A DNA stretch of 46,804 nt from Chiloscyllium plagiosum. Taxonomy: Eukaryota. The stretch is from contig NC_057718.1 of assembly GCF_004010195.1 (NCBI RefSeq), positions 55,977,244 to 56,024,047 of the forward strand, in the 5' to 3' direction. The notes below the pieces were generated by a model that searched no databases, was not told the origin of the DNA, and was given only the letters and a program-made list of their open reading frames with translations. Every line of letters starts with the position of its first letter. Position 1 is the stretch's first letter. A program made the position numbers and the translations under genes. Shown piece after piece: positions 3,545-27,618 of this stretch.

Positions 3545-4148
3545 GCAGCCTTGGTGCCATTTTTAATCCAGAGGTTAACTTCCACCCATACCTTCATGCC
3601 ATACCTTATCTGCTCCTGCAACTTTCATTCAAATTTTTGTTACTTCGAGACTCCACATTTCTAATAAAGTCTTTTGTAAAACTAATCAACAACTATGCTG
3701 CCTTGCCCTAAATTGTGCCAAATCCATTCATCTATCACTCCTCTGCTTACTGATCTTTTTTTATTTCTGATCAAGTAACAGCTTGATTTTGGAATCCTTT
3801 TTAATCAAATTCCTCTCTGGTTTCCTCCTCCCCATCGCTGTAATCTCCAGCCCACAACCCTCCGAAATATCTACATATAAATTCAGAGCTCTTGAGCATC
3901 CTGATTTCAATCTCTTCACTGCTGGCAGCCATTGATTCAATTGACAATTTCCTAAACTCTGGTACTCCTTCCCTGCACTTCTTCACCTTGCTTTCCTCTT
4001 TTATGACACTCCTTAAAGCATATATCTTTGGTTGTATATTTAATCATCTGACCGAATTTCCCTTATGTGACTTGGTATCGTATTTTGCTATATATTGCAT
4101 TGCAAGATGCTTTATTATGTTAAATGTGATACATAATTTGAAGTTGTT
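3545..4148 (+). mobile_element. Degenerate L2-type LINE 3' fragment
   Basis: Decayed L2-like 3' ORF2 sequence (atcactcctctgcttactgatc; acactccttaaagcatatatctttg) and a short tail. Confidence 0.55.
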
Positions 4149-6019: not shown

Positions 6020-6229
<210 letters not shown>

Positions 6230-6249
6230 TGAAAAAGGGACATTCCTAA

Positions 6250-7435
6250 CATTTTCTGCCTTCAAGAAAGCAATACTGAGCAGGTCAGGAGACATCTGTG
6301 GAGAGAGAAACAAAGTTGCTATATCAGGATCAATGGCATTTCATTAGAACTGGAAACAAAAAATTTACAGGATGTAAACAAGTACAGAAGCAGGAAAATG
6401 TGTTCGGGAACAACAAAAGGGAAGAGATGTAATAGGGTGGAAGGCAGGATAGATTAAATCATAAAAAAGATGATGGTGCAAGGCAAAAGAGGATAGTAAT
6501 ACAACTTAAGAAACAAAAGTGCAAGTCCAAAGTAAATAGAAATGTGAGTTACAGAATCATTACCAAACACTGACATCTGGAAAAATTATAGCAATGATTC
6601 TGTAATTGTTCAACCTAGTGTTAAGTTCAGAACACTGCGAGGTATCTGAACAAAAGTTGAAATCTTACATGCTGTTTCATACGAACAGTGTAGGTAGGAG
6701 CTGCGAACAAAAAGGTCAAAATGGGAGTGGGTTGGAGAATTAAAATGACAGGTGACTGGAAGCTTGTGTCATATTTGTGAACTAAATGAAGTCAGTCACT
6801 CATTGTGAGCATTGAATGCAGTTTACTAAATTGAATGTTTATGAAATGTTTGGGGCCCTGGGCGGTATGGAGAAAGAGGGTAAAAGGATTGGAGTTGCCT
6901 CCCTGCACTTTTATGAGAAAGCATCATGAGAAAGGGAATGGGCGGTGATTGAAGAAGGAACCGTGATGTTGTTGAAGGAATGATCCATTAAATATGGATG
7001 TAAGATGTGGATGTTGGTGGATGTAAGTTGAGGATGTGTAAGTCCTATTGTGATTCTGGAAGGAGGATGAAGGGGTAATAGCAGAAGTACAGAAATTGAA
7101 ATGCTCAAGGTCAAGAATTCTATTACTGTCTCAGGAGGGAAATCCCAGTTTGGGAGAAAGAGAGGAAGACATACCAGAAACACTGCATTGGAAATTGGCA
7201 CCATAAAAACAGATGCAATAGAAGCTAAGAAACTGGCAGAATGAAGTGGAGTTCGTGGAGGGATAGGAGGAAATGTAATCGAGGTAGCTGTGGAACACAT
7301 TTGGGTTAAAGTTAATTTTGGTCATTAATCTTCCCACACAATGCTAATAAAGAGTTTGAGAACTGGGAAGGACAAGCCAGAGATGGACTATATGATAGTG
7401 AGGGAAGAGTGGAAATTGATTAAATTTTCTAATTC
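6250..7435 (-). mobile_element. Old Penelope-like element
   Basis: Minus-strand HSYLDYISSYP...FCQFL matches SYLDYTSSHP...IPYSQF in the PLE at 27048-27437. Terminal motif gagcaggtcaggagacatctgtggagagagaaac. Confidence 0.7.
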
Positions 7436-8209
7436 AGGGTCAGAACAGACTTTGTAATCTTTGTCCAAATCAGGATGTATATAAATTGAAAGATTACTTG
7501 AAGATACCAGTGTTCTCAAAAACTTACTGGTCCTTCTTTCTGAATATTAAAGATAATGGGTGTGGGGGTGCTTCTGAGAAAGCCTTTGACAATTATTGCA
7601 GAGCAAGACCCAACACAGCTAAATATGCCAGTGGAGAGAGTCAATATATCAGCTAGTGAATCAGATGCTAATGAAGCATCTGGATGATGTCAAGCTTCCA
7701 TCCGAGCAGCTTCATACAGTTGATTGCTAGGCCACCTCAGAGGGTTGGAGAAAAAAAACAACCTAAGTTAACCATGTGGCTTTTTATGATAGTTTCATGT
7801 TAATTCATACTGATTAAAAAAAACTTGTATGTTCAGACTTTTGAAGAAATTAAAAATCTGAAACTGCTTTGGTAGAATTTAAATTCATGTTTCTGAGTTT
7901 TTTTGGGACTTGTCAAGATATTTGCTCAGTATTAAGACATACCCCTTGAATGGGATCATACTCACTCTAAAATGTGAGTGAGTTTAATATGTATATGTCT
8001 GATGATGGAATATTGCCAGAACAGCACAGATTACTTCCCAGAATTTGGCACAATTCTTTTTAAGTTCTTTTAACTTCCACACTCCACAAAGAATCAACTC
8101 TTTATCAGACTGTTTCACATACAAAACAACTTTCACAAGAAGGCTTATTAGAAGTAAAGATTGGCCAGTAACAGTGATTCAGTAGGTCAGATCCCACTTA
8201 TTACTTTCA

Positions 8210-8467
8210 TGACGCCAGGTTATAGTCCAACAAGTTTATTTGGAAGTACAAGCTTTTGGAGCGCTACTCCTTCGTCAGATAGCTAGTGGAGTAGCCACTG
8301 GCACTTTCAAGTAATCTTTCAATTTATACTCCTACTCAACTAGCGACCTAACGAAGGAACAGCACTCCAAAAGCTTATACTTCCAAATAAACCTGTTGGA
8401 CTATAACCTGGTGTCGAGTAATTTTTATCTTTGTCCACCCCAGTCCAACACCAGCATCTCCACATCA
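8210..8467. mobile_element. Fold-back non-autonomous PLE derivative (84-nt inverted arms)
   Basis: Arms 8211-8294 and 8332-8415 are reverse complements (about 10 mismatches). Same family as 46490-46610. Flanked by ttattactttca (8198-8209) and ttgttacttcca (8468-8479). Confidence 0.8.
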
Positions 8468-8969
8468 TTGTTACTTCCAATTTGCAGTTTCCTATGTACA
8501 AATGTAACAATATCACAACACTTTACTCGTGGCCCAAACTAGACAAGTGACTAATACACACGTACACCAAATTTATCTAAACACTGCAACCCTTACATTC
8601 CCATGTGAACTTCATTGAATCTGTCAGAACAGAACAGAAATTAAACTACCTCTGAGCGTAGAGCTGCTGGTCAACCACCCCCATCCCGAACAGAAATAAC
8701 CAGTTGACTATTCCCTGCTGAGAAATAACATTCCATTTTACTTTCCATTAAGATCTGATTAATACTTCACAGTTTATAATTAAAATGGCATCTGTCTCAT
8801 GTTGAACACAAATTCTATTGTCTTAAGTTGTTTTCTGGACAAATAAGTAGTTTCAAAATGTAAACAGAAAATGCTTGAAAATGTACAATGTCATGAGCTA
8901 AGGAGTCAACCCTCATTACAACAAGCCCAATAAAAGGGCTTGTGTGGGAGGTTGGGGTAAGGACATATT

Positions 8970-9087
8970 CCTCACATCCCTGAAGCATTAACTCTCCTGG
9001 TCCTCGGATGCTGCTTTACCTGCTGTGCTTTTCCATTTCCACACTTTTCAACTCTGATCTCAAGCATCTGCAGTCCTCACTTTCTCC
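8970..9087 (+). mobile_element. PLE terminal fragment, same family as 12690-12892
   Basis: ctcggatgctgc...ctgctgtgcttttcc...ctctgatctcaagcatctgcagtcctcactttctcc. The hammerhead stem II region is deleted. Confidence 0.75.
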
Positions 9088-9830
9088 AAGTGGGGTAAGG
9101 GCATAGGAGAGCTCAAGCCATAAAGTTATTGAACTCAATATAGACTCCAAAAGATGGCAAAGGCTCCAGGCAGAAAATGAGGTGCTGCTCTTCCAGCTTG
9201 CACTGAGTTTCGCTGGAGCACTACAGCAAGCCAGAGACAGATGTTTTCCAGTGAACAGGTGATGTGTTGAAGTGGCAGGCAACGGGAAGTTCAGGAATTT
9301 TTTACAAACAGAATGCAAGTGTTCTGCGAAGCGGTCATCCAGAATGCACTTTGTTTCCCCAGTGTAGAGGAGACCATATTGTGAGCAGCAAATGCAGTAG
9401 ACAAGGTTGTGTGAAGTACAGATAAAGCACTGATTCACCTGGAAGGTGAAGAGGGAGGAAGTAAATGGACAGGTGTTATACCTTCTACGATTTCAGCAGA
9501 AGGTGCCATGAACTTGTGGGGGAATGTTGGGAGTGAAAGAAGAGTGACAAGGCTGGAGAGGGGAATATGTGTCTGATGGTGGCATCCCTCTGGAGATAGT
9601 GGAAATGATGGCTAATGATCCTCTGGATGTGAATGCTGGTGGGATTGTAGGTAAAGAAAAGGGGAACCCTATCATTGTTGCAAGAGGGAAAAGAGGGGTT
9701 GAGGGTTGAACGGTAGGAAATGGGTTAGACCCAGCTGAGAACCATGTCAATAACAGTGCTGGGGAATCCTCAGTTCAAGAAGAATGTGGATATTTCAGAA
9801 GCTCCTTTGTCGCAGTTGGCATCATCAGAA
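9088..9830 (-). mobile_element. Penelope-like element, GIY-YIG endonuclease region
   Basis: ORF 9016-9438 has NLVYCICCSQYGLLYTGETKCILDDRFAEH, a degenerate PLE GIY-YIG motif. Confidence 0.85.
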
Positions 9831-9831
9831 C

Positions 9832-10232
9832 AAACTACTTCAACACACCACTCTGTACCCTGGCCAACATCTTGGCTTGCTTGCAGTGCCCCAGCGAAGC
9901 TCAGTGCAAGCTGGAAGAACAACACCTCATTTTCTACTTTGAGTTCCTGCAGTCTTCTAACTCGATGTCAAGTTCAATAAATTTAGGGCTTGAGCTCTCC
10001 CATGTCCCTACCCAAACCCCCCACACACCAGGGCTTGTTATCACATAGTCTGTTATTATACACAACCCATTGTTAGCCACTAACAGTCCCTATTAATAGC
10101 TATTCACCCTCCTAGCCAGATCATTATCCACTCCTTTGACTGTCCAACTGCTCTTCTCTTTCTTTGGCCTCTACCCCCACCTAGCGTTTACTTCTTACCC
10201 CTCCCTTACCCTACCTTCTGCATATGAACTGA
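9832..10232 (+). mobile_element. Inverted partial copy of the adjacent PLE 3' region
   Basis: About 9832-10020 is the reverse complement of about 9090-9275. Both yield the peptide CSAPAKLSASWK. Confidence 0.8.
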
Positions 10233-10236
10233 CACC

Positions 10237-11128
10237 TCCCGTCTGTAGTCTGTTTCGTCACCATCTGAGATTCGACCGACGGTGGTGGCATCATTAACGA
10301 ACTTGTAAATGGCATTAGTCTAGTCTGGTAAGACGGTGAGTACAGTAGGGGGCTGAGTATGCACCCCTGGGAGGCTCCAGCGTTGAGTGTTAGTGAGGAT
10401 GAAATATTGTCCCCAGTCTTCACTGATTGTGGCCTGTGGGTCAGAAAACTGAGGATCCAGTTGCAAAAAGTGGCGTTTAGTCCAAGATTTAATAATCCGT
10501 CTCGTGAGGATAATAGTGTTGAAGGCTGAACTGAAGGCTGAACTGTAGTCAATGAGTAGGATTCTTACATAGCTGTTCTTGGTGAGGAGTGAAGGGCAAG
10601 TGATATGGCATCTGACGTGGATCTGGTGGCCTGATAGGCAAATTGGAGTGGGTCCAGAGTAGTGGGGAGGCCAGAATTGATTAATGCCATGACCAGCCTT
10701 TCACAGCACTTAATGACAACTGAGGTTAGGGCCACTGGGCAGTAGTCATTGAAACATGCTACATGAGCCTTCTTAGGCACAAGGATGAAGTTGGCCCTCT
10801 TGAAACAGGCAGGGATAGTGGCCTGCTGCAGGGAGAGGTTGAAGATGTCTGAGAAAACCTCTGCCAGTTGATCTGCATATACTCTGAGTGCACGGCCTGG
10901 TACTCAGTCTGGTCCCATCACTTTCCTTGGATTCACACGAAGGAAAACTGATCTGACCTCTTGTGATAGGTTCGTCAGGACTTGTCAGAATAAATGTTGC
11001 CTCTCTGCTGAAATTCTGCTCAAAGCGAGCATAGAAGATGTTGAGACAATCTGGGAGGGATGTGTCATCGTCTGTTATCTTGCACTGTCTCTTTTTAGAA
11101 CCTGTGATGTCATTCTGTCCTTGCCATA
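10237..11128 (-). mobile_element. Rex1/Babar-type LINE RT fragment
   Basis: PKKAHVACFNDYCPVALTSVVIKCCERLV...LDPLQFAY...RSTSDAI and [16 protein letters not shown]...[14 protein letters not shown]. Confidence 0.8.
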
Positions 11129-11129
11129 T

Positions 11130-11509
11130 AAAAAAGGTTTCATATGAGAAAAGGTACCTTTGACAGGGACTGTGATGAATAACAGTCTTTCATTGGTAGT
11201 TGGTGTTCTTTCTTGCTAACTGTCCAAAATGCCTTTTTTTAATATCCCAAACATCAGATTGTCTCATTGGTTTGATATTGTCAAAAGAGTAAAATTCAAA
11301 TTCAGTTGTGTTTTAGTATCTTGGGGCACAATTTTAAGCTGGTTAAATTTGAACTGCTCTGTAAACAGTTGAGGTATCTAGGTTACAGCCAAACCTTTCA
11401 ATTTTCCAGCATACTGCGTGACTGCTAGTCAGTCACATGACAGCTGCTTGCCAACTTTCAGCATTCACTCTATCTTAAAGATACAGTACGCACCTTCAAC
11501 TTCATAATA
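11130..11509 (-). repeat. Partial 3' LTR of the Gmr1-type element
   Basis: Follows a purine-rich tract (gaagggcaag on the minus strand) downstream of RNase H. Resembles about 36080-36350 of the solo LTR. Truncated at the Rex1 fragment. Confidence 0.6.
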
Positions 11510-12220
11510 CTTGCCCTTCAGAAAAAATGAGCCATCATAATGAAAAATGGCTTAATTTTTTTTCTAATTCTTAATGCCATTACAATGAAATATATTGGAC
11601 GTTAATCTAAGTTCATGGTAGGGCAACTTAGAGCACTTTTCAATGAAATAGTCTTATATTCTTGTTTTTAAATCATTCCAGGAATGCAAGAGGTTTGTGA
11701 TCCATGTACACAACGATCTCCAACACGTTGTTCATCACATAAACATTAAAATGTTGTAAGGCCAGTACCAAACCCAATAATTCAGTTTTAATCGTAGAGT
11801 ATTTTATCTGGTGGGTTTTGAGTTTCTTTGAAAAGTAACCAACTGGCAGTTCAATTCCATCATCATCTTCCTGTAGCAGTACAGCTCCAAACCTTATGTC
11901 GCTAGCATCGATTGCAACTTTGAAGGGTTTCAAAAAGTTTGGTGTAGCTAACACTGGTGCAGTGGTAAATACTGCTTTTAAATTGTCAAATGCCTTTTGG
12001 CATGGTCTATCCAGTGAAATTTTGTGTTCTTCTTCAGCAAATTTGTTAACAGTGCCACTACATTGCTAAAGTTTGGAACAAATATCTGTAGAATCCGCTT
12101 GGTCCCAAAAATCGAAGCACCTCTTTCTTTGAGGTTGGTCGTAGAAATCCCTTAATGGCCTTCGTCTTTGCATTCCTTGGAGTCAACTTTCCATGACCGA
12201 TGTTATGTCCCAAGAATTGT

Positions 12221-12533
12221 GGGCGGCACGGTGGCACAGTGGATAGCACTGCTGCCTCACAGCGCCAGAGACCTGGGTTCAATTCCCGACTCAGGCGACT
12301 GACTGTGTGGAGTTTGCACATTCTCCCCGTGTCTGTGTGGGTTTCCTCCGGGTGCTCCGGTTTCCTCCCACAGTCCAAAGATGTGCAGGTCAGGTGAATT
12401 GGCCATGCTAAATTGCCCGTAGTGTTAGGTAAAGGGGTAAATGTAGGGGAATGGGTGGGTTGCGCTTCGGCGGGTCGGTGTGGACTTGAAGGGCCGAAGG
12501 GCAAGTTTCCACACTGTAAGTAATCTAATCTAA
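12221..12533 (+). mobile_element. HE1-type V-SINE, full length, nested in the Gypsy pol
   Basis: tRNA-derived head with A box (tggcacagtgg) and B box (ggttcaattcc), V-domain core gtgtgggtttcctccgggtgctccggtttcctcccacagtccaaag, and (aatct)n tail. Confidence 0.92.
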
Positions 12534-12689
12534 TGTCACCTCTGCCTTCGCGAACTCTGTTTTCTTTAAGTTAATTACCAGTTTTGCTTCTCTTAGTCAT
12601 TCAAAGAGCTCTGCCAGCTGTACCATGTAATCTTTCCAGGAGTCACTAAAGATCATTACATCATCCAGATAGACTGCATAGTTTGTTAA

Positions 12690-12892
12690 AAATGTGTTGC
12701 TGGAAAAGTGCAGCAGGTCAGGCAGCATCAAAGGAGAAGGAGAATCGACGTTTCGGGCATAAGTTTCCTGAAGAAGGGCTTATGCCCGAAACATCGATTC
12801 TCCTTCTCCTTTGATGCTGCCTGACCTGCTGCGCTTTTCCAGCAACACATTTTTAAGCTCTGATCCCCAGCATCTGTAGCCCTCACTTTTTC
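12690..12892. mobile_element. Young fold-back PLE derivative with 16-bp target-site duplication
   Basis: Arms 12686-12763 and 12779-12856 match at 76/78 positions as reverse complements. Flanks ctgcatagtttgttaa (12674-12689) and ctgcagagtttgttaa (12893-12908). Confidence 0.9.
12768..12795 (+). ncRNA. Minimal hammerhead ribozyme motif, mutated stem III
   Basis: CUGAAGA-A-GGGC(UUAU)GCCC-GAAA-CAUC. The opposite arm retains GAAACGUC. Confidence 0.6.
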
Positions 12893-15800
12893 CTGCAGAG
12901 TTTGTTAACCCAGCCACAACTCTGTTCATGACTTTTTAGAATGTGGTTGGTGCATTCTTCATTCCAAAGGGGATCACTTTGAATTGATATAGCTCATTTG
13001 GGGTTACAAACGCAGAAATTTCTTTCACTTTCTCTGATAAAGGTACCTGCCAATAACCACGCAGTAAGTCAAACTTTGTGATGTAACTGGCTTGTCCAAC
13101 TTTCTCTATACAGTACTCCAATCTTGGTATGGGGTATGAGTCCGATTTTGTTATGGCGTTGACCTTCCAACAGTCCACACAAAATCATTAAGTCTCCTCA
13201 GGTTTTGGAACAAAGACGATCGGCGAGCTCCACTCGCTCTGACTCAGTTCAATGATATCTTCGTTGAGCATCACATCCACTTCTGTCTGGACCTGTGTGG
13301 CTTTGAAAGGATTAAGCCTGTAGGGGTGTTGTATTCCCTACTCCTGCCTCATGCAAATTGTCCTCCCCGTCTTATTCCTGCATTTGTCCTCATATTGTTG
13401 CAGCAAACCTTTCAACTGCGTTCTTTGCTCCTGAGACAGATAGTTTCCTAACCCATCCCACTCCTTAAGGACTTCCTCATTGTTTAACATATTTTGAGGC
13501 ACATGAAACTCCACAACATCTGGCTTTGATTCCTCACTCTACAGGGCAGTGACTGACACCTGTTTCTCCAGTTTCTTCTCTATTATAATAACATTTTACC
13601 ATATTCATATGACATACGTGATACAGTTTTTTTCCTATCCACCATCTTTACCAGATCGTTTACCTGACTCAACTTTTTATCAGTTTGATAGGGATTACTA
13701 TACCTGGCTTTGAAGGGATCTCTTACCACTGGTGACCATACTAATATGTCATCCCCACAGTAAAATGTCTGAATTTCTGAGTTTTTATCTGCCACCTGCT
13801 TCATTCAATGCTGTGTCCTTTTCAGGTGCTGTTTAGCTAACTCACCTACCTGATTTAATCTCTCCTTCACCTCCAATACATAATTCAATTGTGAGATCTC
13901 AAACTTTGGTTCTGTCAATTTTTCTTTAATTAATTTCAAAGGGCCTCTCACTTCATTTCCGAATATTAACTCGAAGGGAGTAAACTGAGTAGATTTGTTT
14001 GGGGCATCTCTAATGACAAATAATACAAATGGGATACCTTTGGGTAATCCTGACAGTATGCTGTCAACATTATCTTCAGGGTCTGATGCCACCTTTCCAG
14101 AGCTCCCTGGATTTCAGGATGATACACATTTGATTCAAAGTGCTGTATACCTAAGCTATCCATGACTTCCTTAAACAGCTGAGCAGTAAAATTAGACCCT
14201 TGGTCTGACTGAATCTCTCTGGGTAGCCCATACCACACAAAGAAAGTTACTAACTCCTCTACCACCCTTTTTGCCGTAATGCTTCATAATAGAATTGCCT
14301 CTGGAAATCTGGTAGACATATCCATTATAGTTAGCAAGTACTGGTTCCCACTTTTAGTTTTCGAGAGGGTATCTACCCCATCAATCATAACCTGCGTGAA
14401 AGGCTCTTTGAATGTGAGAATTGGCAACAGAAGTGCTGGTTTTATTACTGCCTGTGTCTTACCTACCATTTGACATGTACAGCAAAAGTTAACCACATCC
14501 TTGTACTTTCCAGGCCAATAGAAATGTTTTTGTACCTTAACCTGAGTCTTCCGTACACCTAGGTGACATCCTATTAGTAGTTAATTTGCCAGTATTGTTT
14601 CCTGTCTATATGCTACCGGCAACACAATCTGGTGCACTTCTGTCCATTTCTGCTCTGCACTAACCTGCCATGGTCTCCATTTTTGTCTTAGGATTCTGTC
14701 TTTAAAATAATAACCCTCAAGAATATTCTCGGTTTCCTTTTCTAAGTATGCATCAACATATATATCTTTTATTGTCTGATATTTCTGTTGTAAATTCATT
14801 AGCCTTTCAGGGCTAGACATTTCTGCCTGACCCTCTGTCTGTTCAGGTTTTTCCTACACCATTTCATCAAATAGGGTGTCCGCTAACTGAACCTCAACTC
14901 CTTCATCTTTCTCTTTAGTTTTTGCTTCGTGCTATGACTTATGGTAATGGGATCTTGTTACTACACAGCCGGGGTAAATTTCAGGGTATTTTCCTTTTAA
15001 CTCCTCAGTTCCCTAGTCTTCCTTGGGCTTTTCCAAAACCATAGGTGTCATTTCCACCTTGAAACCTGCTAAATTGATCCCAAGAACAAATTGTATTCCC
15101 GGAACTGACACTCTGTCAATCACTCCCACTGTTACTTCCTCAGTCTTGAGTTGGCACTCCAACCTGATCTTACGTAGAGGAGGTTTCTAAGTTTCTGTCC
15201 GTCTATCCCACAAATTACCATTCTCTCCAGTAACAGGGCAGTAAGAGTGCAAATACATGCATCTCTTATTATTAGAGACTGATTAGATCCTGTATCTCTC
15301 AAAATTATAACTTCTTTCCCTTCTCCCCCTGTTCTTTCTGAGTAAACTTTACCCACAGAGGTGAATTCTTTATAGAGATCAGGCACTAACTCCATACCCA
15401 GCCCCTGCCTAGACTGTGCACTCTCCTGCAGCTCCTCGACTTTTAGGAGTTCCTTTCCAACTTTCACTAATGCCACTGGCTTAGCTTCTTTTACCACATC
15501 TTTTCCTACAGTGCCTTTCTTTAATGACCAGCACTGTGACTTTATGTGTCCCACTTTACCACAGTGGAAACACCTGAGGCCTTTCATCTCCTTTCCACCC
15601 TCTTGGGTTTCTTTTTTAACCTGTGGTCAACAATTACCAGTGTTCTCTACTCTTTGTTTCGTAGTGTAGGATCTCCCCCTCTCCTAATTTCTATCCCTTA
15701 GAGGATGAAAGTCTTGCCAGAAGCAAAACTTTGCCTAATGCACTAATGTATATTCATCTGCCATCTCTGCTACTCATTTCACTTCTTGAACTTTCTGTTC

Positions 15801-16365
15801 ATCCACACAAATTCTTATCATGTCTGGAAGTGAGTTTTTAAACTCCTTTAGCAGATTAATCTTTCTTAAAGCCTCTTAGGTCTTATCTATTTTTAAGGCC
15901 CACACCCATCTATCAAAATTACTATGTTTAATTCTTTCGAATTCAACATAAGTCTGACCTGATTCCTTCTTTACGTTTCTGAACTGCTGTTTATGTGCTT
16001 CTGGTACCAATTGATAAGCACTCTAAATAGTTTCATTGACCTCTTCATAATCTCTTGACCCCTCATCTGACAGCCTTGCAAATACTTCACTAGCTCTGCC
16101 TACAAGTTTAGCCTGAATTATAAGTCCTCTGGACACTCCTTCTGCCTACCCAATTTTTCAAATGAAATAAAGAAGGCTTTGACATCTTTCTCATCAAAAT
16201 GTGGCAGTGTTTTAACATATTTGTATATATTACTTCCTTCTCTCTTCATCTCCATCCTGTTGACTTTGCTGACTGAGTCGCAACTTATGAAGTTCAAATT
16301 CTCTCCCAATTTCTCTCTTTTTTTCTCTCTCTCTTTTTCTCTCTCCCTTTCTTCTCTCTCTCCTC

Positions 16366-17955
16366 TATAAATTGGACATTTTTGAAGATGTCACTATTTA
16401 TTTAGCCATGTACTCTATCTTTCATATTCTTCTGCACAGTAATCACTGATGCAAAATACTGGTTTAGTATGACCACAATATGACCTCCCAGCCCCTATAT
16501 TCAGTACTCTGACCAGTAAAGGAAAGCATACCAAACCCCTTCTTCACTATCCTATCTACCTGCGACTCCATTTTCGAGGAGCTATGAACCTGCGCTCCAA
16601 GGTCTCTTTGTTCAGCAACACTCCCCAGGACCGTACCATTAAGTGTATAAGTCCTGCTAAGATTTGCTTTCCCAAAATGCAGCACCTCACCTTTATCCAA
16701 ATTAAGCTCCATCTACCACTTCTCAGCCCATTGGCCCATCTGATCAAGATCTCATTGTAATCCGAGGTAACTTTCTTCACTGTCCACTTCACCTCCAATT
16801 TTGGTGTCATCTGCAAACTTACTAAGTATACCTCAAATGATTTGGATGCAAACATAAATATAAATGTTGAAAGGTAGTGTACCCAGCACCGATCCTTGTG
16901 GCACTCCACCACTTTCTAGTCTGAAAAACAACCCTCCACCACCACTCTCTTCTACCTTTGAGCCAGTTCTGTATCCAAATGGCTAGTTCTCCCTATGATC
17001 TAACCTTGCTAACCAATCTCCCATGTGGAACCTTGTTGAATGCCTCACTGAAGTCCATATAGATCATGTCCACCACTCTGCCCTCATCAATCCTCTTTGT
17101 TACTTCTTCAAAAACCCTCAACCAAGTTAGTGAGACATGATTTCCCACGCACAAAGCCATGTTGACTATCCCTAATCAGTCCTTGCATTTCCAAATACAT
17201 GCACATCCTGTCCCTCAAGATTCTCTCCAACAACGTGCCCACCACCAATGTCAGGCTCACTGGTCTACAGTTCCCTAGCTTGTCCTTACCACCTTTCTTA
17301 AACACTGGTACCACATTAGCCAACCTCCAGTCTTCCGGCACTTAACCTGTGACTATCGATGATACAAATATCTCAGCAAGGGGCCCAACAATCACTTTCT
17401 AAGCTTCCCACAAAGTTCTCGGGTACACCTGATCAGGTCCTGGTGAGTTATCCACTTTTATGCGTTTGAAGACCTCCAGCACTTCCTCCTCTGTAAACGG
17501 ACATTTTTCAAGATGTCACCATCTATTTCTTCCATGTCCTTTTCCACAGTAAGCACTGTTTAGTATCTCCCCCATCTCATGTGGTTCCACACAAAAGCCA
17601 CCTTGCTGATCTTTGAGGGGCCCTATTCTCTCCATAGTTATCCTTTTGTCCTTAATGTATTTGTAAAAACCCTTTGAATTCTCTTTAACTCTATTTGCCA
17701 AAGCTACCTCATGTCCCCTTTTGCCCTCCTGATTTCTCTTTTAAGTATACTCCTACTGCCTAAGAATTCACTTGATCTATCCTGTCTATACCTGACATAT
17801 GCTTCTTTCTTTTTCTTAACCAAACCCCTCAATTTCTTTAGTCATCCAGCATTCCCTACACCTACCAGCCTTTCCTTTACCCTAACAGGAATATACTTTC
17901 TCTAGACTCTCGTTATCTCATTTCTGAAGGCTTCCCATTTTCCAGCCGTCCCTTT
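16366..17955 (-). mobile_element. CR1 LINE ORF2 fragments (RT region)
   Basis: PEDWRLANVVPVFKKG...RPVSLT...SQHGFVRGKSCLTNL; RVKENSKGFYKYIK; MELNLDKGEVLHFG. A short second-copy piece sits at 16366-16470. Confidence 0.9.
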
Positions 17956-18125
17956 GGACAGCTGGAACTGACAACCGGAAGCGGCAGAGACAAACCACTA
18001 TAAATACCGGAGGAAACATCACAGAAGCGCTTCACAGGAGGCTCCCAGGCACTGAGGATGTCACCTAGACAGGGGACGAAACGTCTGCAACACAAATTCC
18101 CAGCTCGGTGAACAGAACCACAACA
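17956..18125 (+). mobile_element. Penelope-type terminal repeat (pLTR) fragment, distinct family
   Basis: CpG-retaining 170-nt non-CR1 insert between two CR1 pieces. Contains TATAAA (17999-18004) and a hammerhead core. Confidence 0.7.
18049..18088 (+). ncRNA. Minimal type I hammerhead ribozyme with intact core
   Basis: GCA-CUGAGGA-U-GUCACCU(AGAC)AGGGGAC-GAAA-CGUC-UGC. Stem I GCA/UGC, stem II 6 of 7 pairs, palindromic ACGU stem III, GUC cleavage triplet ending at 18085. Confidence 0.8.
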
Positions 18126-18700
18126 GTTTAAATCCTCCCGAGTAGCTCTAGCAAATCTTCCTGTCAGTATATTAGTCCCCTTCCAATTCAGGTGCAATCT
18201 GTCTTCTTGTACAGGTCACTTGTACCTGAGGAGCGATTCCAATGATCCAGAAATGTGAATCCTTCTCCCAAACGCCAGCTCCTCAGCCATGCATTCATCT
18301 GTTCTATCCTCCTATTCCTATCCTCACTAGCTCACAGCATTGGGAGTAATCCAGATATTATTCCTCTCGAGGATCTCCTTTTTAAATTCCTGCCTAACTC
18401 TCTATATTCTCCCTTCAGAATCTCATTATTTTGCCTTCCTATGTCATTGGTTCCAATGTATACAATGACCTCCTACTGGTCCCCCTTCCCTCTTAAGAAC
18501 ATTCTGCACCCTCTCTAAGACATCCTTGATCCTGGCACCAGGGAGGCAACACACCATTCTGATTTTTCGCTGCTGGCCACAGAAACGTCGATCTGTGCCT
18601 CGGACTAGATTCCCTAACACAATTGATCTCTTGGAATCTGATGTATCCTTCATTGCATTAGAGCCAGTCTCGATACCAGAAACTTGGCTGTTCATGCGAC
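18126..18700 (-). mobile_element. CR1 LINE ORF1 esterase-domain fragment
   Basis: SIVLGNLVRGTDRRFCG...RMVCCLPGARIKDV...HWN and LHLNWKGTNIL motifs (SGNH/GDSL-like esterase). Confidence 0.85.
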
Positions 18701-19618
18701 ATCTCCTTACAAATTTATTATTCAATTTCCCACTAACTATTGAGGAGTCCATAGTACAATCCCAATGAGGTGACCATCCATTTCTTATTTCTCAGTTACA
18801 CCCAAATAACTTACCTGGGCGTATTCCCAGGAAAACCCTCCTGATGTACAGCCAAAATGTTATCTCTAATCAAAAACGCCAGTTCCCCTCTTCTCTTGCC
18901 CCTCTTTTGATCCTTTCTCCAGAATCTATACCCTGGAACATTAAGCTACCAGTCCTGTCCATCCCTGAGCCACATCTCTGTAATTGCTATGATATCCCAG
19001 TCCCATATTCTTAACCATGCCCTGGGTTCATCGTGTTTACCTGTTAGGCCTCTTGCATTGAAATAAATGCAGTTCAATTTAGCAGTCCTACCTCATTCTC
19101 TACTTACTTCCAACCTACTCTGTCAATTTGACTGACTCCTTTTCCCATCTGTACGAGTCTCAGACTGATCTCTTTGCTTATTATCTCCCCGAGTCCCAAT
19201 GCCTACCCCCTGCCCTTTAGTAGTTTAAATCATCTGAGCAGCTCTTGCAAATCTCCCTGCCAGTATATTAGTCCCCTTCCAGTTCAAGTGCAATCTGTCC
19301 TTCATATACAGGTCACTTCTACCCCAGAAGACGTTCCAATGACCCAAAATTGTGAACCTTTGTCCTCTACACCAGCTCCTCAGCCACGGATTCATCTGCT
19401 CTATTCTCCTATTCCTATCCTCACTACCTCGTGGCACTGGAAGTAACCCAGATATTACTAACATCGAGGACTTACTTTTTAAATTCCAGGCTGATTTTAT
19501 ATATTCTCTCCTCAGAATCTTGTCCCTTACTGTTCCTGTGACTTAGTTCCAATGTGTACAATGACTTCCTGCTGGTCTCACTCTCCTTTGAGAATATTTT
19601 TCACTATCTCCAAGATAT

Positions 19619-22590
19619 GTGGCAGGGGGCTGGGAACCAGAAGAGAAGACAAGTAGACAGCGAGGTGGAATCTGGACACTGTAAGAGTCATGAAGTTAGC
19701 ATTAATAAGGGGAGGAGGAGGCAGAACGCAAAAGAACTGGTAGCCTAAAGTGCATCTACTTTAATGCAAGGTGTATAGTATGTAGGCAAATGAACTTAGG
19801 GCTTGGATTGGTGCCTGGGAGTATGACGTTACTGCAATCACAGAGACCTTGGTTGAAGGAAGGGCATGATTGGCAACTAAATGTTCCAGGATATAGATGC
19901 TTCAGACGGGACAGGGAGGGAAGTAAAAGTGGGGGTGGAGTTGCATTGCTGGTCAGGGATGATATCACGGTTGTGCTAAAGGTGGACACTATGGAGGGCG
20001 TGGGTAGTGAGGCATTATGGATGGAGCTGAGAAATAAGAAGGGTGCAGTTACATTGTTGGGGCTGTATTACAGGCCTCCCAACAGTGAGCGTGAGGTTGA
20101 AGAATAAATAGGTAAACAGATTATGAAAGATGTAGAAGCAATAGGGGAGTGGTGATGGACAATTTTAATTTTCCCAACATTGACGTCAGAGGTCTGGATG
20201 AGGTAGAATTTGTAAGAAGAGTCCAAGAGAGTTTTCAAGAGCAGCATGTCAATAGTCAGACGAGGGAAGGGCCATATTGGACCTGGTACTGGGGAACAAG
20301 CCAGGACAAGTGGTAGAAGTTGCGGTGGGGAATTTCTTTGGGAACAGTGACCACAATTCTGTAAATTTTAGAATACTCATTGACAAAGATGAGAGTGGTC
20401 CTAAGGGAAGAGTACTAAACTGGGCCAAAACCAATTATATCAAAATTAGGCAGGAGCTGGGAAATATGGATTGGCACAGCTATTTGAAGGGAAGTCCACA
20501 TTTGATATGTGGGACGCTTTCAAAGATAGGTTAAAGATGTTGCAGGATAGGCATGTCCCATTGAAGGCAAAAGATAGGAAAGGCAAGATTCGTGAACTGT
20601 GGATAACAGGAGAAATTGTACGACTAGCCAAGAGGAAAAGGGAAGCGTACATAAGGTCCAGGCAGCTAAGAACAGAACGGGCCCTGGAGAAATATTGAAA
20701 GATTAGGACCAGTCTTAAATGAGGAATCAAGTGAGCTAAAAGGGGTCAGGAAATAGCTTTAGCGAGCAGAATTAAGGAGAATCCCAAAGCATTTTATTCT
20801 TATATAAGAAGCAAGCGGGTGACTAGAGAAAGGATTGGTCCACTAAAGGATAATAAAGGAAGGCTGGGTGCTGAACCTTAGAGAATGGGTAAATTCTAAA
20901 TGATTACTTTGCATCAGTGTTCACTGAGGAGAGGAACATGATGAATGTTGAGATTAGAGATAGAAGTTTGATTAGTCTGGATCATGTTGACATAAGTAGG
21001 CAAGATGTGTTGGGGTAGGCTAGAGGTTAGTAAGGTGTACAAATCCCCAGGACTGGATGGGATCTATCCCAGGTTGCTGAGGGAGGTGAGAGAGGAAATA
21101 GCTGGGGCCCTGACAGATATCTTTGTGGCATCCTTAAACACAGGTGAGGTGCCGGAGGACTGGAAGGTTGCTCATGTTGTCCTCCTGTACAAGAAGGGTA
21201 ACTACAGACCAGTGAGCCTGACGTCAGTGGTGGGAACGTTGCTGGAGAAAGTACTGAGGGATAGGATCTATTTATATTTAGAAATGAATGGGCTTATCAA
21301 TGATAGGCAACACAGTTTTGTGTGGGGGGAGATCGTGCCTTACCAACTTAATAGAGTTCTTTGAGGAAGTGACCAAGTTGATAGAGGAAGGAAGGGCTGT
21401 TGATGTCATATACATGGACTTTAGTAAGGCATTTGATAAGGTTCCCCATGGTAAACTAATAGAGAAAGTGAAGTCACATGGTGTGCAAAGTTTTCTAGCT
21501 AGGTGGATAAAGAACTGGTTGATGAACAGGAGACAGAGTAGTAGTTGAAGGGAGTTTCTTGAAATGGAGAAAGGTGACCAGTGGTGTTCCACAGGGATCG
21601 GTCCTGGGGCCACTGTTCTTTGTAATATACATAAATGATTTGGAAAAGGGCACTGTTGGTATCATCAGCAAGTTTGCAGATGACACAAAGATTGGTGGAG
21701 TAGCAGAAAGCATAAGGGAGTGTCAAAGAATACAGGAGGATATAGATAGACTGGAGAGTTGGGCAGAAAAGTGGCAGATGGAGTTAAATCCAGACAAATG
21801 TGAGAAGATGCATTTAGGCTCTAATTCTAGAGCGAATTATACTGTAAAAGGAAGCGCCTTGGGAAAAGTTGATGAGCAGAGAGATCTGGGAGTGCAGGTC
21901 CATTGTACCCAGAAGGTTGCTGCACAGGTGGATAGAGTGTTCAAGAAGGAATATGGTATGCTTGCCTTCACCAGACGCGTATTGAGTATAAGAGCTGGCA
22001 GATAATGTTAAAATTGTACAAGACATTGGTTCAGCCGCATTTAGAATACTGTGTATGGTTCTGGTCGCCACATTACCAAAAGGATGTGGACGCTTTGGAG
22101 AAGGTGCAGAGAAGGTTTACAAAGATGTTCCCTGGTATGGAATGTACTAGCTATGAAGAGAGATTGAAGAGATGTTGAGTAGGTTAGGTTTGTTTTCATT
22201 AGAAAAAAGGAGATTGAGGGGGAACCTGATCGAAGGTTACAAAATCATGAAGGGTATAGACAGGTAGATAGAGATAAGCTTTTTCCCAGGTTGAAGGATT
22301 CAGTAACAAGAGGTCATGCATTCAAGGTGAGAGGTGAAAAGTTTAAGGGGGATACACGCGGCAAGTACTTTACACAGAGAGTGGTGGGTGTCTGGAACGC
22401 GTTGCCAACAGAGGTGGTAGAGGCAGGCATTTAAGATGCGTCTGGACAGATGTATGCGTAGGTGGGGAACAGAGGGATACAGATGCTTAGGAATTGAGCA
22501 ATTGGTTTAAACAGTAGATTTGGATCGGCTCAGGCTTGCAGGGCCAAAGGGCCTGTTCCTGTGCTGTAAGTTTTCTTTATTCTTTTCTCT
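19619..22590 (+). mobile_element. Near-complete CR1 ORF2 (endonuclease plus RT) and 3'UTR, pseudogenised
   Basis: WQLNVPGYRCFRRDR...GGGVALLV...YYRPPN (AP endonuclease); KSPGLDGIYPRLL; YMDFSKAFDKVPH; SGVPQGSVLGP...KFADDTK. Broken by stops and frameshifts. Confidence 0.93.
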
Positions 22591-23351
22591 TTATATCTTT
22601 GACCCTGGCTCCAGGGAAGCAACACACCATTCTGATTTCTCACCATTGGCACAGAATTGTCTTCCTGTGTCTCTGACTAGAGAGTCCCCTATCACAATCA
22701 ATCACTTGGAACCTGGCATACCCCTCATTACTTTAGAACCAGTCTCGATACCAGAAACCCGGCTGTCAGTGCTACATTTTCCTGAGAATCCATCACCCCC
22801 AACATTTTCAAAATAGCATACTTGTTTGAGAAGGGAATAGCCACAGGAGACTCCTGCACTACCTCCCTTCTTCTCCTAACTTTCCTGGAGGTCACCCCGC
22901 TACATGACTGTATCTTCGGTTTATCTCCCTTCTGCAACTGCCATTTATCACACCCCCAGTTCCTGTAAATTCCTCATTGTCTCTGACTGCCGCTCCAACC
23001 GATCCATGCAATCCAATAGGATTCGCAACGAAACATACTTCCTGCAGACATAATCATCAGTAACATGGAAACTCTCCCTGACTACATCCGACAGAAAGAG
23101 CATAATACTCTACTGAAGGCCATCTTTGCACCTTAATAAACTACAGACCCAAAAAATAGCACAGTTTAATTGCTCCAGGCTAGCTTAGTACCTGTGTTTT
23201 TGTATTAAAATTTTAATCAAGAGACAGAACTCAATAACAACACATTTTTTGTTTAAAACCCACTGTACTCACTATTGTAGATTTACAAAATAAAAACATT
23301 AAAGTTAACTTTCAAAAGCAACTTGGCTGTTCCCCTGCTGAGAGTCCCCAC

Positions 23352-23690
23352 ACATGGTGACTTAATGGTTAGTTCTGCCTCACAGCACCAGAGACCCAGA
23401 TTCAATTCCAGCCTCAGGTGACTGTGTAGAGTTTGTACATTCTCCTTGTGTCTGCGTGGGTTTCCTCCAGGAGATCCAGTTTCTTCACACAGTCCAAAGA
23501 TGTGCAGTTTAGGTGAATTGGCCATACTAAACTGCCCATAGTGTTCAGAGATGTGTAAGTTAGGAGCATTAGTCATGGGAAATGTAGAGTAATAGGGCAG
23601 GGAAATAGATCTGGGTAGGATACTGATCGGAGGGACAGTGTGGACTTGTTGGGCCAAATAGCCTGTTTCCACACTGCAGGAATTCTATGA
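23352..23690 (+). mobile_element. HE1-type V-SINE, older copy
   Basis: Degenerate tRNA head, V-domain core and attctatga tail. Confidence 0.85.
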
Positions 23691-23772
23691 AAACACAGGT
23701 TTCTCCAAGATCAGCTGTGAATTTTGCTGTTTGTTAATTTTCAAAGAACAAAGTGATGTCCAAAGATTCAAA

Positions 23773-24093
23773 CGGGTGGCACAGTGGTTAGCATTGCTGC
23801 CTTACAGCTCCAGGGACCCGGATTCAATTCCTGCCTCGGGCGACTGTCTGTGTGAAGTTTGCACAGTCTCCCAGTGTCTGTGTGGGTTTCCTCCGGGTGC
23901 TCCAGTTTCCTCCCACAATCCAAAGATGTGCCGGTCAGGTGAATTAGCCATGCTAAATTGCCCATAGTGTTAGGTGCATTAGTCGGGGTAAATATAGGGG
24001 AGTGGGTCTGGGTGGGTTGCTCTTCGGAGGGTCAGTGTGGACTTGTTGGGCCAAAGGGCCTGTTTCCATACTGTAGGGAATCTAATCTAATCT
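23773..24093 (+). mobile_element. HE1-type V-SINE
   Basis: ggtggcacagtggttagca head, V core and (aatct)n tail. Confidence 0.9.
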
Positions 24094-24857
24094 TGAAACT
24101 AGGCAGCAGCTGTGCAGGTTACTACTGCTTTCTTTTTCTGTTTGAATCACTGCCCATGTGGTCACTGCCTTTCTTTGTCTTCCTTCTTTTGAAGTGCAGT
24201 TGTTTTGATTTTTTTTCCCCCAAAGTTCCAAAATAATGCAGCACTTTTTAAACAATAATTACTACTCCTGGATGCAAGGAAATCAGCTCCAATGCTGAAA
24301 ATACCTCAAAAAAAGAACAGCTCTTACAGTCACAATTTTTTCCTATCCTCTTTAAGGTCTCCTTGAGCCTTGCATTAAATTCATGTAGCTTCCTGTAGTC
24401 AACCAGCAAAAAACAGGTTCAACAAAAGAGCACCATATATGGCTAGCAGAGCTAACCATTGAGCCACCATTGTGGGAGCTCACAGCAGGGGAGCAGCCAA
24501 GCTGCTTTTGAAAGTTAACCTTAATGTTTTTCTTTTGTACATCTACAATAATGAATACAGTGGTTTTTTTTAGAAAAATGTATGTTGTTATTGAGTTCTG
24601 ATCTTTACTCTGATTTTCTCGTCTTCTTAACCAAACAGCTGAGATAGGGCAACTTAACATGTTAGATAACCGAGATAATCTATTTGGAATTCCAATGTCC
24701 TGCATCAGAATGTCTCGATATTATTATCCTTTAATCATCAGAATCTGATCCAGATTAGAAAATTCAAACAATAATTGTGTAAATCTAAGCATGATATATG
24801 AGCTTTGTTATGTTTTAAACTATTTTAAATTATGCTCCTGACTTTTCCCCAATATAG

Positions 24858-25076
<219 letters not shown>

Positions 25077-25949
25077 TAACATCCAGGCTGTGTAAATCAT
25101 CTACTGGTCAGGATGGATTAAACAGAAGCTGATTGCCCAAACAGTTACACTTCCACTTCTACCAAATGTGCAATCAGGAATCTCACATCATGGTTTGAGA
25201 ATCACTGGAGAGCAATGGCTGCAATCTTATCCTAGAGGGAGGTCAGTAGCAAGTTGGGATCCGTTTAATTCAGTAGCAGGTTTTTGCATTTTCCTTTGCC
25301 AGACATTCAAAGAAGGTAGGGAGATGATACATGCATTTGTCAAAGGCTCTTGTTTTCATGGTAGAAATGTCTAGCTAATGGCTAGCAGTCTCTAAGTGCG
25401 TACTCTGATAGTGATATCAGAATAAATTAATGAAAATCAGCATGAGTACAGACTTAAATTCCTGTAACACCTCATCACCAGAATAGTGGCACACCATGTA
25501 AAGTACCTCTTTACTAACCTGTTGCAAAAATCTAGACAATGTTAAACATTTCAACATCTTCTTAAGGTTGTCACTATCACAGATGACAATCATTAACCAG
25601 TTAGATTCACTCTGTATGATATCAAGAAACTGCACCTTATGCAGAAAAGATTATGTCAAAATCCAACTGTAATGCAGTGCTCCAGAATTAGTTGCATCTT
25701 TAGCTACATGGTACAGCTCCAAAATGTGAAAAATTATCCAGTTATTTGCTGACCAGAAAAGGCAGGACATATCCAATCTGGTCAATTATCATCCTATCAA
25801 TATGTTTCAGCCATCAAAATTGATTGAAGAGTTACTCAAAGGTACTGTAAATGAAAACAAAATCAAAGAACTGTAGATGCTGGAAGTCAGTCACAAAAGT
25901 GGAAAGGGCAGGAAAAATTCAGCAGGTCTGGCAGCACTTTCGAGAGAAA

Positions 25950-27618
25950 TGAGAAAGTGAGGAATGCAGATGCTGGAGATGAGAGTCAAAAAGTGTCACG
26001 CTGGAAAAGCATAACAGGTCAGGCAGCATCTGAGGAGCAGGAGAGTTGACGTTTCAGGCATAACCCCTTCATCAGGAATGTGGTGGGGGGAGGGCTGAGA
26101 GGTAATAGGAGGAGGATGGGGCTGGGGGAGAGTATAGTTAGGAAGGCGATACGTAGGTGGGAAGGTTAAGGTGATAGGCCAGAGCGGAGAGTGGAGCAGA
26201 TAGATGGGAAGGAAGGTGGACAGGTGAGACAAATTCAAGAGAGCAGTGCTAAGTTGGAGTGTTAGATTTGGGATAAGGTGGGGGAAAGGGAGATGAGGAA
26301 GCTGGTGAAATGGGTGTTGATGCCGTGTGGTTGGAGAGTTCCTAGGCGGAAGGTGAGGCGTTCTTCCTCCAGGTATCAGGTGGCTAGGACTTTGCAGTGG
26401 GGGAGGCCCAGGATTTACATATCCTTGGCAGAGTGGGAGGGGGGTTGAAGTGGTTGGTCACAGGGTGCTGGGGTTGTTTGGTGCATGTATCCCAGAGAGT
26501 TTCTTTGAAACGTTCCGCAAATTGGCGTCCTGTCACCCCAATGTAGAGGAGACCACATCGAGAGTAATGGACACAGCAGATGAGGTGTTGGATGTGCAGG
26601 AAAATCTCTGCCAAATGTGGAAGGATCCTTTGGAGCCTTGGATGGAGGTGAGCAGGAGGTGTGGGCATAGGTTTTACACCACTTAAGGTGGCAAGGGAAG
26701 GTGCCTGGAATGGAGGGTGGGTTAGTGGGGAGTGTGGACCTAACGAGGGAGTCGCAGAGGGAATGGTCTCTGCGGAATGCTGATAGGGGTGGGGAGGGAA
26801 ATATATCTCTGGTGAGTCTGACTGTAGTTGGTGGAAATGTCGAAGGATGATGTGTTGTATCTGGAGATTAGTGGGATGGAAGATGAGGACCAGGGGCTTC
26901 TATTCTTGTTGCAATTGGAGAGGTGGGGTTCAAGGATGGAGGTACATGAAGTGGAGATGTGCTGGAGGGCATTGTTGACCACATGGGAGGGGAAATTGCA
27001 TTCCTTGAAGTAGGAGGCCATCTGGGATGATCTGGAGTGGACTTGTGTCAGAAGCAGAATTGGGAGTAGGGGATAGCATTTTTACAGCAGGCTGGGGTGA
27101 GGGGGTGGGAGGAGGTGTAGTCCAGGTAGCTGTAGGAGTCGCTGGGTTTGAAGTAGATGTCCATGTTGAGTCGGTTGCCAGAAATGGAGATGGAGAGGTC
27201 CAGGAATGGGAGGGACGTGTCTGAGATGGTCCGGGTGAACTTGAAGTCAGGGTGGAAGGTGTTTGTGAAGTTGATGAACTGTTCAATCTCCTCGTGGGAG
27301 CACAAGGTAGTGCTGATACAGTCATCAATGTAGCGGAGGAAAAAGTAGGGAATAATGCCAGTGTAACTAAAGAAGATGGACTGTTCCATGTACCCACCAA
27401 AGAGACAGGCATAGCTGGGGCCCATGCAGGTTCCCATGGCTACCCCTTTGGTCTGAAGGAAGTGGGAAGATTCAGAGGAGAAGTTGTTGAGGGTGAGTAC
27501 AGTTCAGCTCATCAAATTAGTGTGTCAGTGGAGGGATGCTGGTTAGGTCAGTAGCATAGGAAGAAACGGAGATTGGAAATGGAGATGGAGAGGTCTAGGA
27601 AAGGGAGGGATGGTCTGG
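25950..27618 (-). mobile_element. Penelope-like element (RT C-half, GIY-YIG, terminal repeat), 5'-truncated
   Basis: MGTCMGPSYACLF...FLRYIDD...LPFLDL...SYLDYTSSHP (RT) and CGLLYIGVTGRQFAERFKE (GIY-YIG). 8-bp direct repeat gagagaaa at 25942-25949 and 27619-27626. Confidence 0.92.
26048..26075 (-). ncRNA. Minimal hammerhead motif in the PLE terminus
   Basis: Minus strand CUGAUGA-A-GGGG(UUAU)GCCU-GAAA-CGUC. Core intact, stems I and II partly decayed. Confidence 0.65.

What the first reader, a model, noticed from the sequence alone, without database searches (positions are those of the whole stretch)
18049..18088. Core-intact minimal hammerhead ribozyme on the EML6 sense strand
Seen: GCA-CUGAGGA-U-[GUCACCU AGAC AGGGGAC]-GAAA-CGUC-UGC. 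All catalytic core residues are present, with a 3-bp stem I, a 6/7-bp stem II, one extra nucleotide after A9, and a loopless palindromic stem III (ACGU). A TATAAA lies about 50 nt upstream. Known: Penelope-like elements carry minimal hammerheads in their terminal repeats, and loopless palindromic stem III forms are thought to cleave as dimers. Inference: this copy would be transcribed in EML6 pre-mRNA and could cut after 18085 if it finds a partner, such as another PLE-derived RNA. The motif class is known; whether this shark family has been described I cannot tell.
Basis: partly seen in the sequence, partly recalled or inferred. Interest (0 to 1): 0.7.

Follow-up and report, generated by a model that had tools for sequence, protein, structure and literature searches.

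The report
Penelope ribozyme stub in shark intron
This 40-letter hammerhead-ribozyme motif is real, but it is one of thousands of identical copies left by a known kind of jumping gene (a Penelope-like element), and this lone copy in an intron likely does nothing to its host gene, although the family's ribozyme likely does cut occasionally in living cells.

Summary
The motif at 18049-18088 is as described. It lies on the sense strand of an 18.6-kb intron of an EML5/6-type gene. It is part of a 170-bp truncated end (17956-18125) of a Penelope/Poseidon-type retroelement; the exact 40-mer occurs 3,415 times in the genome. A near-full copy has repeat-RT-GIY-YIG-repeat architecture, with its ATG inside the ribozyme, as in the anole element PAc. 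Copies decay neutrally (core 25/1046 vs flank 69/2685, p=0.82), so an intact core is normal (64 of 94). Sister families keep the core with covarying stems. Nothing supports an effect on the host pre-mRNA: the copy is solo, has no same-strand partner in the window, and is predicted to misfold in context. One U6 snRNA copy is joined to this family at the predicted cut, as are three to another family (4 of 16 U6 loci). This likely records rare in vivo cleavage. The scan noted both the class and the U6 joins before, on other DNA of this genome. Verdict: new member of a known kind; low interest for this locus.

The parts
17956..18125 (+). 5'-truncated, tail-less end fragment of a Penelope/Poseidon-type element (last codons of the ORF plus pseudo-LTR)
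   Evidence: 95-98% identical to the other 39 scored genomic copies. Ends match the family's tail-less end. Matches both repeats of the near-full copy L061.
18049..18088 (+). Minimal type I hammerhead motif with loopless palindromic stem III; predicted cut after 18085
   Evidence: Sequence, descriptor and shuffles, 3,415 exact copies, cross-family pairs
18058..18060 (+). ATG (A9-U-G10.1) that is the element's likely ORF start; the frame is stopped in this copy after 17 codons
   Evidence: Frame runs on from the 5' repeat of L061. Homolog P0017 aligns from residue 2 at this ATG, with the same M-S-x4-TKRL start. Same placement is reported for PAc (PMC11167929).
18066..18068 (+). TAG stop of the upstream RT-endonuclease ORF, in another frame, at the stem II/loop II edge
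   Evidence: ORFs of L062 and L063 run through the motif and stop here; window frame translation
17999..18004 (+). TATAAA, a family feature of the pseudo-LTR; promoter role untested
   Evidence: Majority state in 79 aligned copies, with T>C variants in 5 and 13 of them
16473..17955 (-). Host LINE (CR1/L2-like by recalled family features; has an RT domain), left flank
   Evidence: 4,282 candidates; RVT_1 match at E 0.0012; continuous match to other copies
18126..18700 (-). Host LINE, right flank; about 900 bp of host LINE is missing between the flanks, and there is no target-site duplication
   Evidence: 5,028 candidates; in L166 the left flank ends at 597 and the right flank starts at 1500
6215..24857 (+). 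Intron of an EML5/6-type gene that contains the insertion
   Evidence: Flanking exons match consecutive PF23414 positions; splice dinucleotides

Best explanation
The motif is the minimal hammerhead of a high-copy Penelope/Poseidon-type retroelement, carried here on a 170-bp truncated copy in an intron, where it is likely an inert passenger. Shown: the copy's boundaries, family size, element architecture, neutral decay of copies and stem covariation between sister families. Inferred: the copy arose by target-primed reverse transcription that began at the family's inner (tail-less) start site on an uncut RNA and stopped after 170 nt. Also inferred: selection on the motif acts only in active master elements, where the RNA is cut rarely and needs help (element protein and/or a second copy pairing through ACGU). 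Rare cuts leave a 5'-OH product that is occasionally ligated to U6 and re-inserted. In the host pre-mRNA the lone copy would be spliced out uncut almost always.
For: 3,415 exact copies; about 17,000 in all (95% CI 11,000-27,000). L061 has repeat 3755-4105, RT with YVDD, GIY-YIG, and repeat 6244-6592; 498 RT/endonuclease homologs. Two 3' ends about 40 nt apart: 63 tailed, 49 tail-less and 15 other among 127 motif-spanning pieces, matching the published tail and two RT start sites (PMC11167929). Core no better kept than flank among 97 copies chosen by an upstream anchor (25/1046 vs 69/2685 non-CpG, p=0.82; no two-sided pair change). Of 87 distinct loci, 30 hold an opposite-strand pair, 1 a same-strand pair and 24 are solo. 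Predicted stem II probability is at most 0.02 in context, and the active dimer of the 40-mer is -12.7 against -20.9 kcal/mol for the best cofold. Family RNA reads run across the cut (depth 162 to 155) with no pile-up of ends. U6 joins at the cut. In PAc the ribozyme cut only with protein and was dispensable for insertion (PMC11167929); single minimal motifs did not cut in vitro (PMC4209133).
Against: No assay was run, and folding energies ignore protein. The U6 joins show that the family probably can cut in cells, so a lone copy helped in trans is not excluded. Partners were sought only within the 46.8-kb window, not the whole gene. The RNA run is a poly(A) single-cell library of a coded species, read at about 2%, with only 4 of 523 reads at least 99% like this locus; it does not preserve RNA ends, so it is weak evidence. 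The missing 900 bp of host LINE may have removed a former partner arm.
Confidence: 0.85

Rival explanations
1. The copy is unselected but leaky: when element protein or another family transcript is present (likely in the germ line), it is cut after 18085 and trims a small fraction of host pre-mRNA.
For: Core, both stems and the palindrome are intact and on the sense strand. Family RNA is present in sense orientation at about 10:1 in one run. U6 is joined at this family's cut in L235. PAc cleavage is protein-assisted (PMC11167929).
Against: PAc needed the first 172 nt of the ORF as template, and this copy keeps only 68 nt from the ATG. Competing folds dominate. No same-strand partner in the window. 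A cut deep in an intron need not block splicing (general knowledge).
Confidence: 0.11
2. The copy was domesticated as an intronic regulator of EML6, like the conserved RECK-type amniote hammerheads.
For: Sense, intronic, core intact; precedent described in PMC6155905 (passages).
Against: Intactness is the neutral expectation. The insertion is young (about 97% identical to family copies) and sits inside another repeat. It lacks a closed stem III.
Confidence: 0.02
3. The motif never cuts, even in the element: it is kept by overlapping coding (ORF start and stop) or as a protein-binding or promoter element.
For: It is read in two frames, and sister families keep both peptides. Ordinary junctions are not enriched at the cut (19 vs 14 and 14, p=0.19), and about 0.2% of copies begin there. 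PAc catalytic mutants still insert (PMC11167929).
Against: All 4 U6-Penelope joins among 16 U6 loci fall at the predicted cut. Stems covary across families (score reached by 3 of 500 shuffles). PAc cleavage was abolished by G8C and C3G and partly rescued by the double mutant (PMC11167929). This rival concerns the family and is compatible with the locus being inert.
Confidence: 0.25

Closest known systems
Minimal hammerheads (min-HHR) of metazoan Penelope-like elements (Cervera and De la Pena 2014, PMC4209133; parts 1-2 of 4 read)
   Same: [quoted passage not shown]
   Different: Helix I is 3 bp (the paper gives 4-5 for Schistosoma), and helix II carries a fixed A.G mismatch. No shark is named in the parts read or in 2 searchable supplement files (file 1 could not be searched).
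PAc, Poseidon element of Anolis carolinensis (Frangieh et al. 2024, PMC11167929; parts 1-2 of 4 read)
   Same: ORF start at the beginning of stem II, cut about 26 nt downstream (here C17 is base 28 from the A of ATG), two 3' ends 30-40 nt apart in AC-rich sequence, RT then GIY-YIG
   Different: Different family and host. Here the upstream ORF also runs into the motif and stops inside it; no activity was measured.
U6/LINE-1 chimeras made by RtcB ligation (Moldovan et al. 2019, PMC6789731; abstract and outline seen)
   Same: U6 3' end joined to a retroelement RNA that needs a 5'-OH, then reverse transcribed
   Different: The 5'-OH would come from the element's own ribozyme. This applies to L235 and three other loci, not to the window's copy.
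Non-LTR retrozymes (bioRxiv 10.64898/2026.07.22.740005; parts 1-2 of 5 and passages read)
   Same: Type I hammerhead of Penelope origin; reported in one chondrichthyan genome
   Different: Retrozymes are tandem non-coding arrays. This is a solo fragment of an ORF-bearing element.

Membership tests
min-HHR of metazoan PLEs | Conserved core CUGANGA / GAAA / UH | tested here: met
min-HHR of metazoan PLEs | Extra base after A9, G10.1-C11.1 pair, long helix II, palindromic loopless stem III | tested here: met
min-HHR of metazoan PLEs | Located in the flanking repeats of a PLE | tested here: met
   Both repeats of L061 carry it
min-HHR of metazoan PLEs | Covariation of helices | tested here: inconclusive
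   None within the family. Across 13 sequences from sister families: stem I outer pair C-G/G-C/U-A and stem II C-G/U-G/U-A; score 3/500, but pairs with two-sided change 326/500. Sequences are related and were picked by a core pattern.
min-HHR of metazoan PLEs | Weak self-cleavage as dimer or with protein | not testable with these tools
   Only indirect evidence: U6 join at the cut
EN+ Penelope-like elements | [quoted passage not shown] | tested here: met
   L061-L063 translations; weak Pfam RVT_1 (E 5e-4) and GIY-YIG (E 0.014), both below cut-off; homologs with PF00078 and PF01541. All copies seen are broken.
EN+ Penelope-like elements | Pseudo-LTRs, inverted 5'-truncated partner, optional 30-40 bp tail | tested here: met
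Penelope/Poseidon clade | CCHH in the endonuclease and no CX2-5CxxC linker finger | tested here: met
   Read by eye from the L061 and L062 translations against the definition in bioRxiv 10.1101/2021.04.23.441226 (passages)
Penelope/Poseidon clade | RT phylogeny with reference elements | not tested
   No named reference set on hand
Non-LTR retrozyme | At least two tandem units with a hammerhead | tested here: not met
   Solo in the window; 1 of 87 loci had a same-strand pair
Domesticated intronic hammerheads (RECK type) | Orthologous conservation across species | tested here: inconclusive
   No listed piece bridged the left junction in 3 contig sets of 2 coded species, which the tool says proves nothing

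The most novel reading that the evidence does not exclude
Shark Penelope minimal hammerheads are live, protein- or partner-licensed cutters in the germ line, as the U6 joins at the exact cut record. The roughly 11,500 core-intact copies of this family, this intronic one included, then form a dispersed set of conditional pre-mRNA cut sites that fire when the element is expressed. The narrower claim, that the family's own RNA is sometimes cut in vivo, I put at about 0.7; the probability given here is for the whole statement, including this locus.
Probability: 0.1. Interest if true: 0.65.

Novelty: new member of a known kind. Interest (0 to 1): 0.2.

Why it matters
The locus itself matters little: it is one of about 17,000 relics. 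The family is a convenient test case for an open question, namely whether animal minimal hammerheads cut in vivo and why Penelope elements keep them. The U6 chimera at this family's cut site is indirect evidence that they do. If sense intronic copies were cut in trans, element activity would impose a transcriptome-wide cost, measurable as a strand bias in introns.

Tried and rejected
Rfam found no hammerhead model here. Preferential core conservation within the family was rejected. A pile-up of ordinary 5' junctions at the cut was not found: 19 at 18086 against 14 at 18084 and 14 at 18088, after setting aside 10, 7 and 8 matches that were small indels or internal deletions. Perfect fold-backs centred on the TGCA just after the cut number 8 places (7 if two small scaffolds are one), against at most 1 at AATT and at most 3 at CTAG. 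That gives p 0.02-0.04, or 0.11 against CTAG alone; it is weak and post hoc, the control loci were not fetched, and I do not count it as support. The pattern could not catch U6-type joins, and 0 of 20 of its loci had an Rfam match. No RNA holder was listed for the stretch; run X22 laid no reads (no test). No piece bridged the left junction in three contig sets or in one RNA run (not evidence). A look-up of earlier findings by sequence returned nothing. Paper searches for hammerhead ribozyme + shark, Penelope + Chiloscyllium, Penelope-like + shark + hammerhead and U6 snRNA + Penelope + hammerhead (0 papers) found no description of this family or of U6-Penelope joins. Repbase, Dfam and subscription journals were not searchable, so the family may well be catalogued. 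EML6 against EML5 and an RT tree were not tested.

Full report
Observation. A descriptor of my own found only this hit on both strands of the window; a loopless hit arose in 4 of 200 shuffles. Rfam does not see it, and it has no unusual folding energy. Three + strand exons match consecutive stretches of the EML second beta-propeller, and their splice signals define an intron at 6215-24857. The motif is therefore intronic and sense. The gene is of EML5/6 type (three HELP domains upstream on the same strand).

What it belongs to. The stretch 17956-18125 matches the other 39 scored copies at 95-98%. The exact 40-mer occurs 3,415 times, against 0 for the reversed control. Among copies picked by an upstream 30-mer (2,684 matches; 90 loci read of the first 100 matches), 19 of 94 had the exact 40-mer, which gives about 17,000 copies. 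[quoted passage not shown] CCHH without a linker finger points to Penelope/Poseidon (definition from passages of bioRxiv 10.1101/2021.04.23.441226); no tree was built. The motif is read in two frames: the upstream ORF stops at TAG 18066-68, and ATG 18058-60 opens the frame that a homolog, P0017, starts with. The anole element PAc has its start codon at the same place (PMC11167929). Copies end at two sites about 40 nt apart (63 tailed, 49 tail-less, 15 other), the published tail. The window's copy is tail-less and solo, has no target-site duplication, and stands where about 900 bp of a host LINE is missing.

Is the core under selection? Not in the copies. Non-CpG core positions differ in 25 of 1046 cells and flank positions in 69 of 2685 (p=0.82); CpG sites decay at 10-17%, G12 included; there is no two-sided pair change. 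Of 94 copies, 64 keep the whole core, against 68% expected from flank rates. Between families the picture differs. A geometry pattern gave 8,561 matches against 5 for the control, including sister families; 4 of the 10 sister loci read carry endonuclease-region homology at 42-89% identity. On 13 aligned sequences the outer stem I pair takes C-G, G-C and U-A, one stem II pair takes C-G, U-G and U-A, and this family's A.G mismatch is A-U in the 10 others. The covariation score was reached by 3 of 500 shuffles, but the count of pairs with two-sided change by 326 of 500. The sequences are related, selected on the core, and also constrained by coding, so this is modest support.

Would this copy cut? 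A loopless stem III needs a second molecule. A relaxed scan of the window found five motif-like hits, and none other on the + strand with both stems; the rest of the gene was not scanned. In context, predicted stem II probability is at most 0.02 and the hammerhead-like fold lies 7-10 kcal/mol above the minimum; the active dimer of the 40-mer is 8 kcal/mol above the best cofold. Family pairs are nearly always on opposite strands: 30 against 1 of 87 distinct loci (three overlapping duplicates removed from 90). Published single minimal motifs did not cut (PMC4209133). PAc cut only with protein, did not need to cut in order to insert, and showed no RNA-seq ends at the site (PMC11167929). In one raw RNA run of a coded species, family reads were about 10:1 sense and ran across the cut without a pile-up, but only 4 of 523 were at least 99% like this locus and the library does not keep RNA ends.

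Does the family ever cut? Earlier scan notes on this genome (e1-8159350, e1-8160647, e1-8159189) claimed U6 joins at Penelope cut sites, so I tested this. Of 39 matches with a T-run before this family's 3' product (30 read), one, L235, carries a whole U6 (96.5 bits). It is a two-armed inverted insertion with a 12-bp duplication at both ends; both arms carry U6 joined to the product, one at the cut to within one T and the other with four altered letters at the join. Both arms were thus likely copied from an already joined RNA. Of 16 loci with an exact U6 3' 27-mer, 4 are joined to Penelope-type products, all at the predicted cut: this one and three of another family. Six are joined to the start of a SINE-like repeat, and six to neither. 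RtcB joins U6 to 5'-OH RNA (PMC6789731, abstract), and a hammerhead leaves a 5'-OH (established knowledge), so these joins likely record rare in vivo cleavage. Against a large role: ordinary junctions are not enriched at the cut (19 vs 14 and 14, p=0.19), and only about 0.2% of copies begin there. The evidence for this family is a single locus.

Verdict. A real minimal hammerhead motif of a known class, on a dead fragment of a very abundant element; an effect on the host gene is unlikely (about 0.13 for the leaky and domesticated readings together). My searches found no paper on this shark family or on U6-Penelope joins. One supplement file of PMC4209133 could not be searched, preprint supplements are closed, and repeat databases were out of reach. 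The scan has noted this class many times. Papers seen: PMC4209133 parts 1-2 of 4; PMC11167929 parts 1-2 of 4; 10.64898/2026.07.22.740005 parts 1-2 of 5 and passages; 10.1101/2021.04.23.441226 and PMC6155905 passages; PMC6789731 abstract and outline. The label CR1/L2-like for the host LINE is recalled.

Noticed in passing
L235:1430-1670 (G000:C1, near 10705202): Two-armed inverted insertion of a U6-Penelope chimera joined at this family's predicted cut, with a 12-bp target-site duplication.
   Followed up: yes
L318, L319, L329: U6 joined at the predicted cut of a second hammerhead-bearing family.
   Followed up: partly
L320, L322, L324, L330, L331, L332: U6 3' end followed by the start of an abundant SINE-like repeat that also occurs in the window near 12220.
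   Followed up: no
L249:1490-1510: A family copy with a run of about 9 extra T exactly at the cut site; a single case, possibly cut, uridylated and re-ligated RNA.
   Followed up: no
L212, L221, L228, L233, L311, L313, L314, L315: Perfect fold-back insertions centred on the 4-nt palindrome right after the cut; weak excess over two control palindromes.
   Followed up: partly
window 18085: A subfamily carries U instead of C at the cleavage position 17: 5 of 94 copies here and 40 of 149 reads in run X21.
   Followed up: no
window 12768-12800 (+), 26075 (-), 8278 (-), 46606 (-): Decayed hammerhead motifs of at least two other repeat families.
   Followed up: partly
P0032: A database isoform of MAP3K7 from Chiloscyllium punctatum ends in 150 residues that are 88% identical to this element's endonuclease region; a possible exonization or annotation artefact.
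   Followed up: no
window 16473-19618: The host LINE is rearranged: 18126-18700 and 18698-19618 cover overlapping parts of the element at 88% and 77% identity to L166.
   Followed up: partly
L263:105-150: Histone 3' stem-loop match (RF00032).
   Followed up: no
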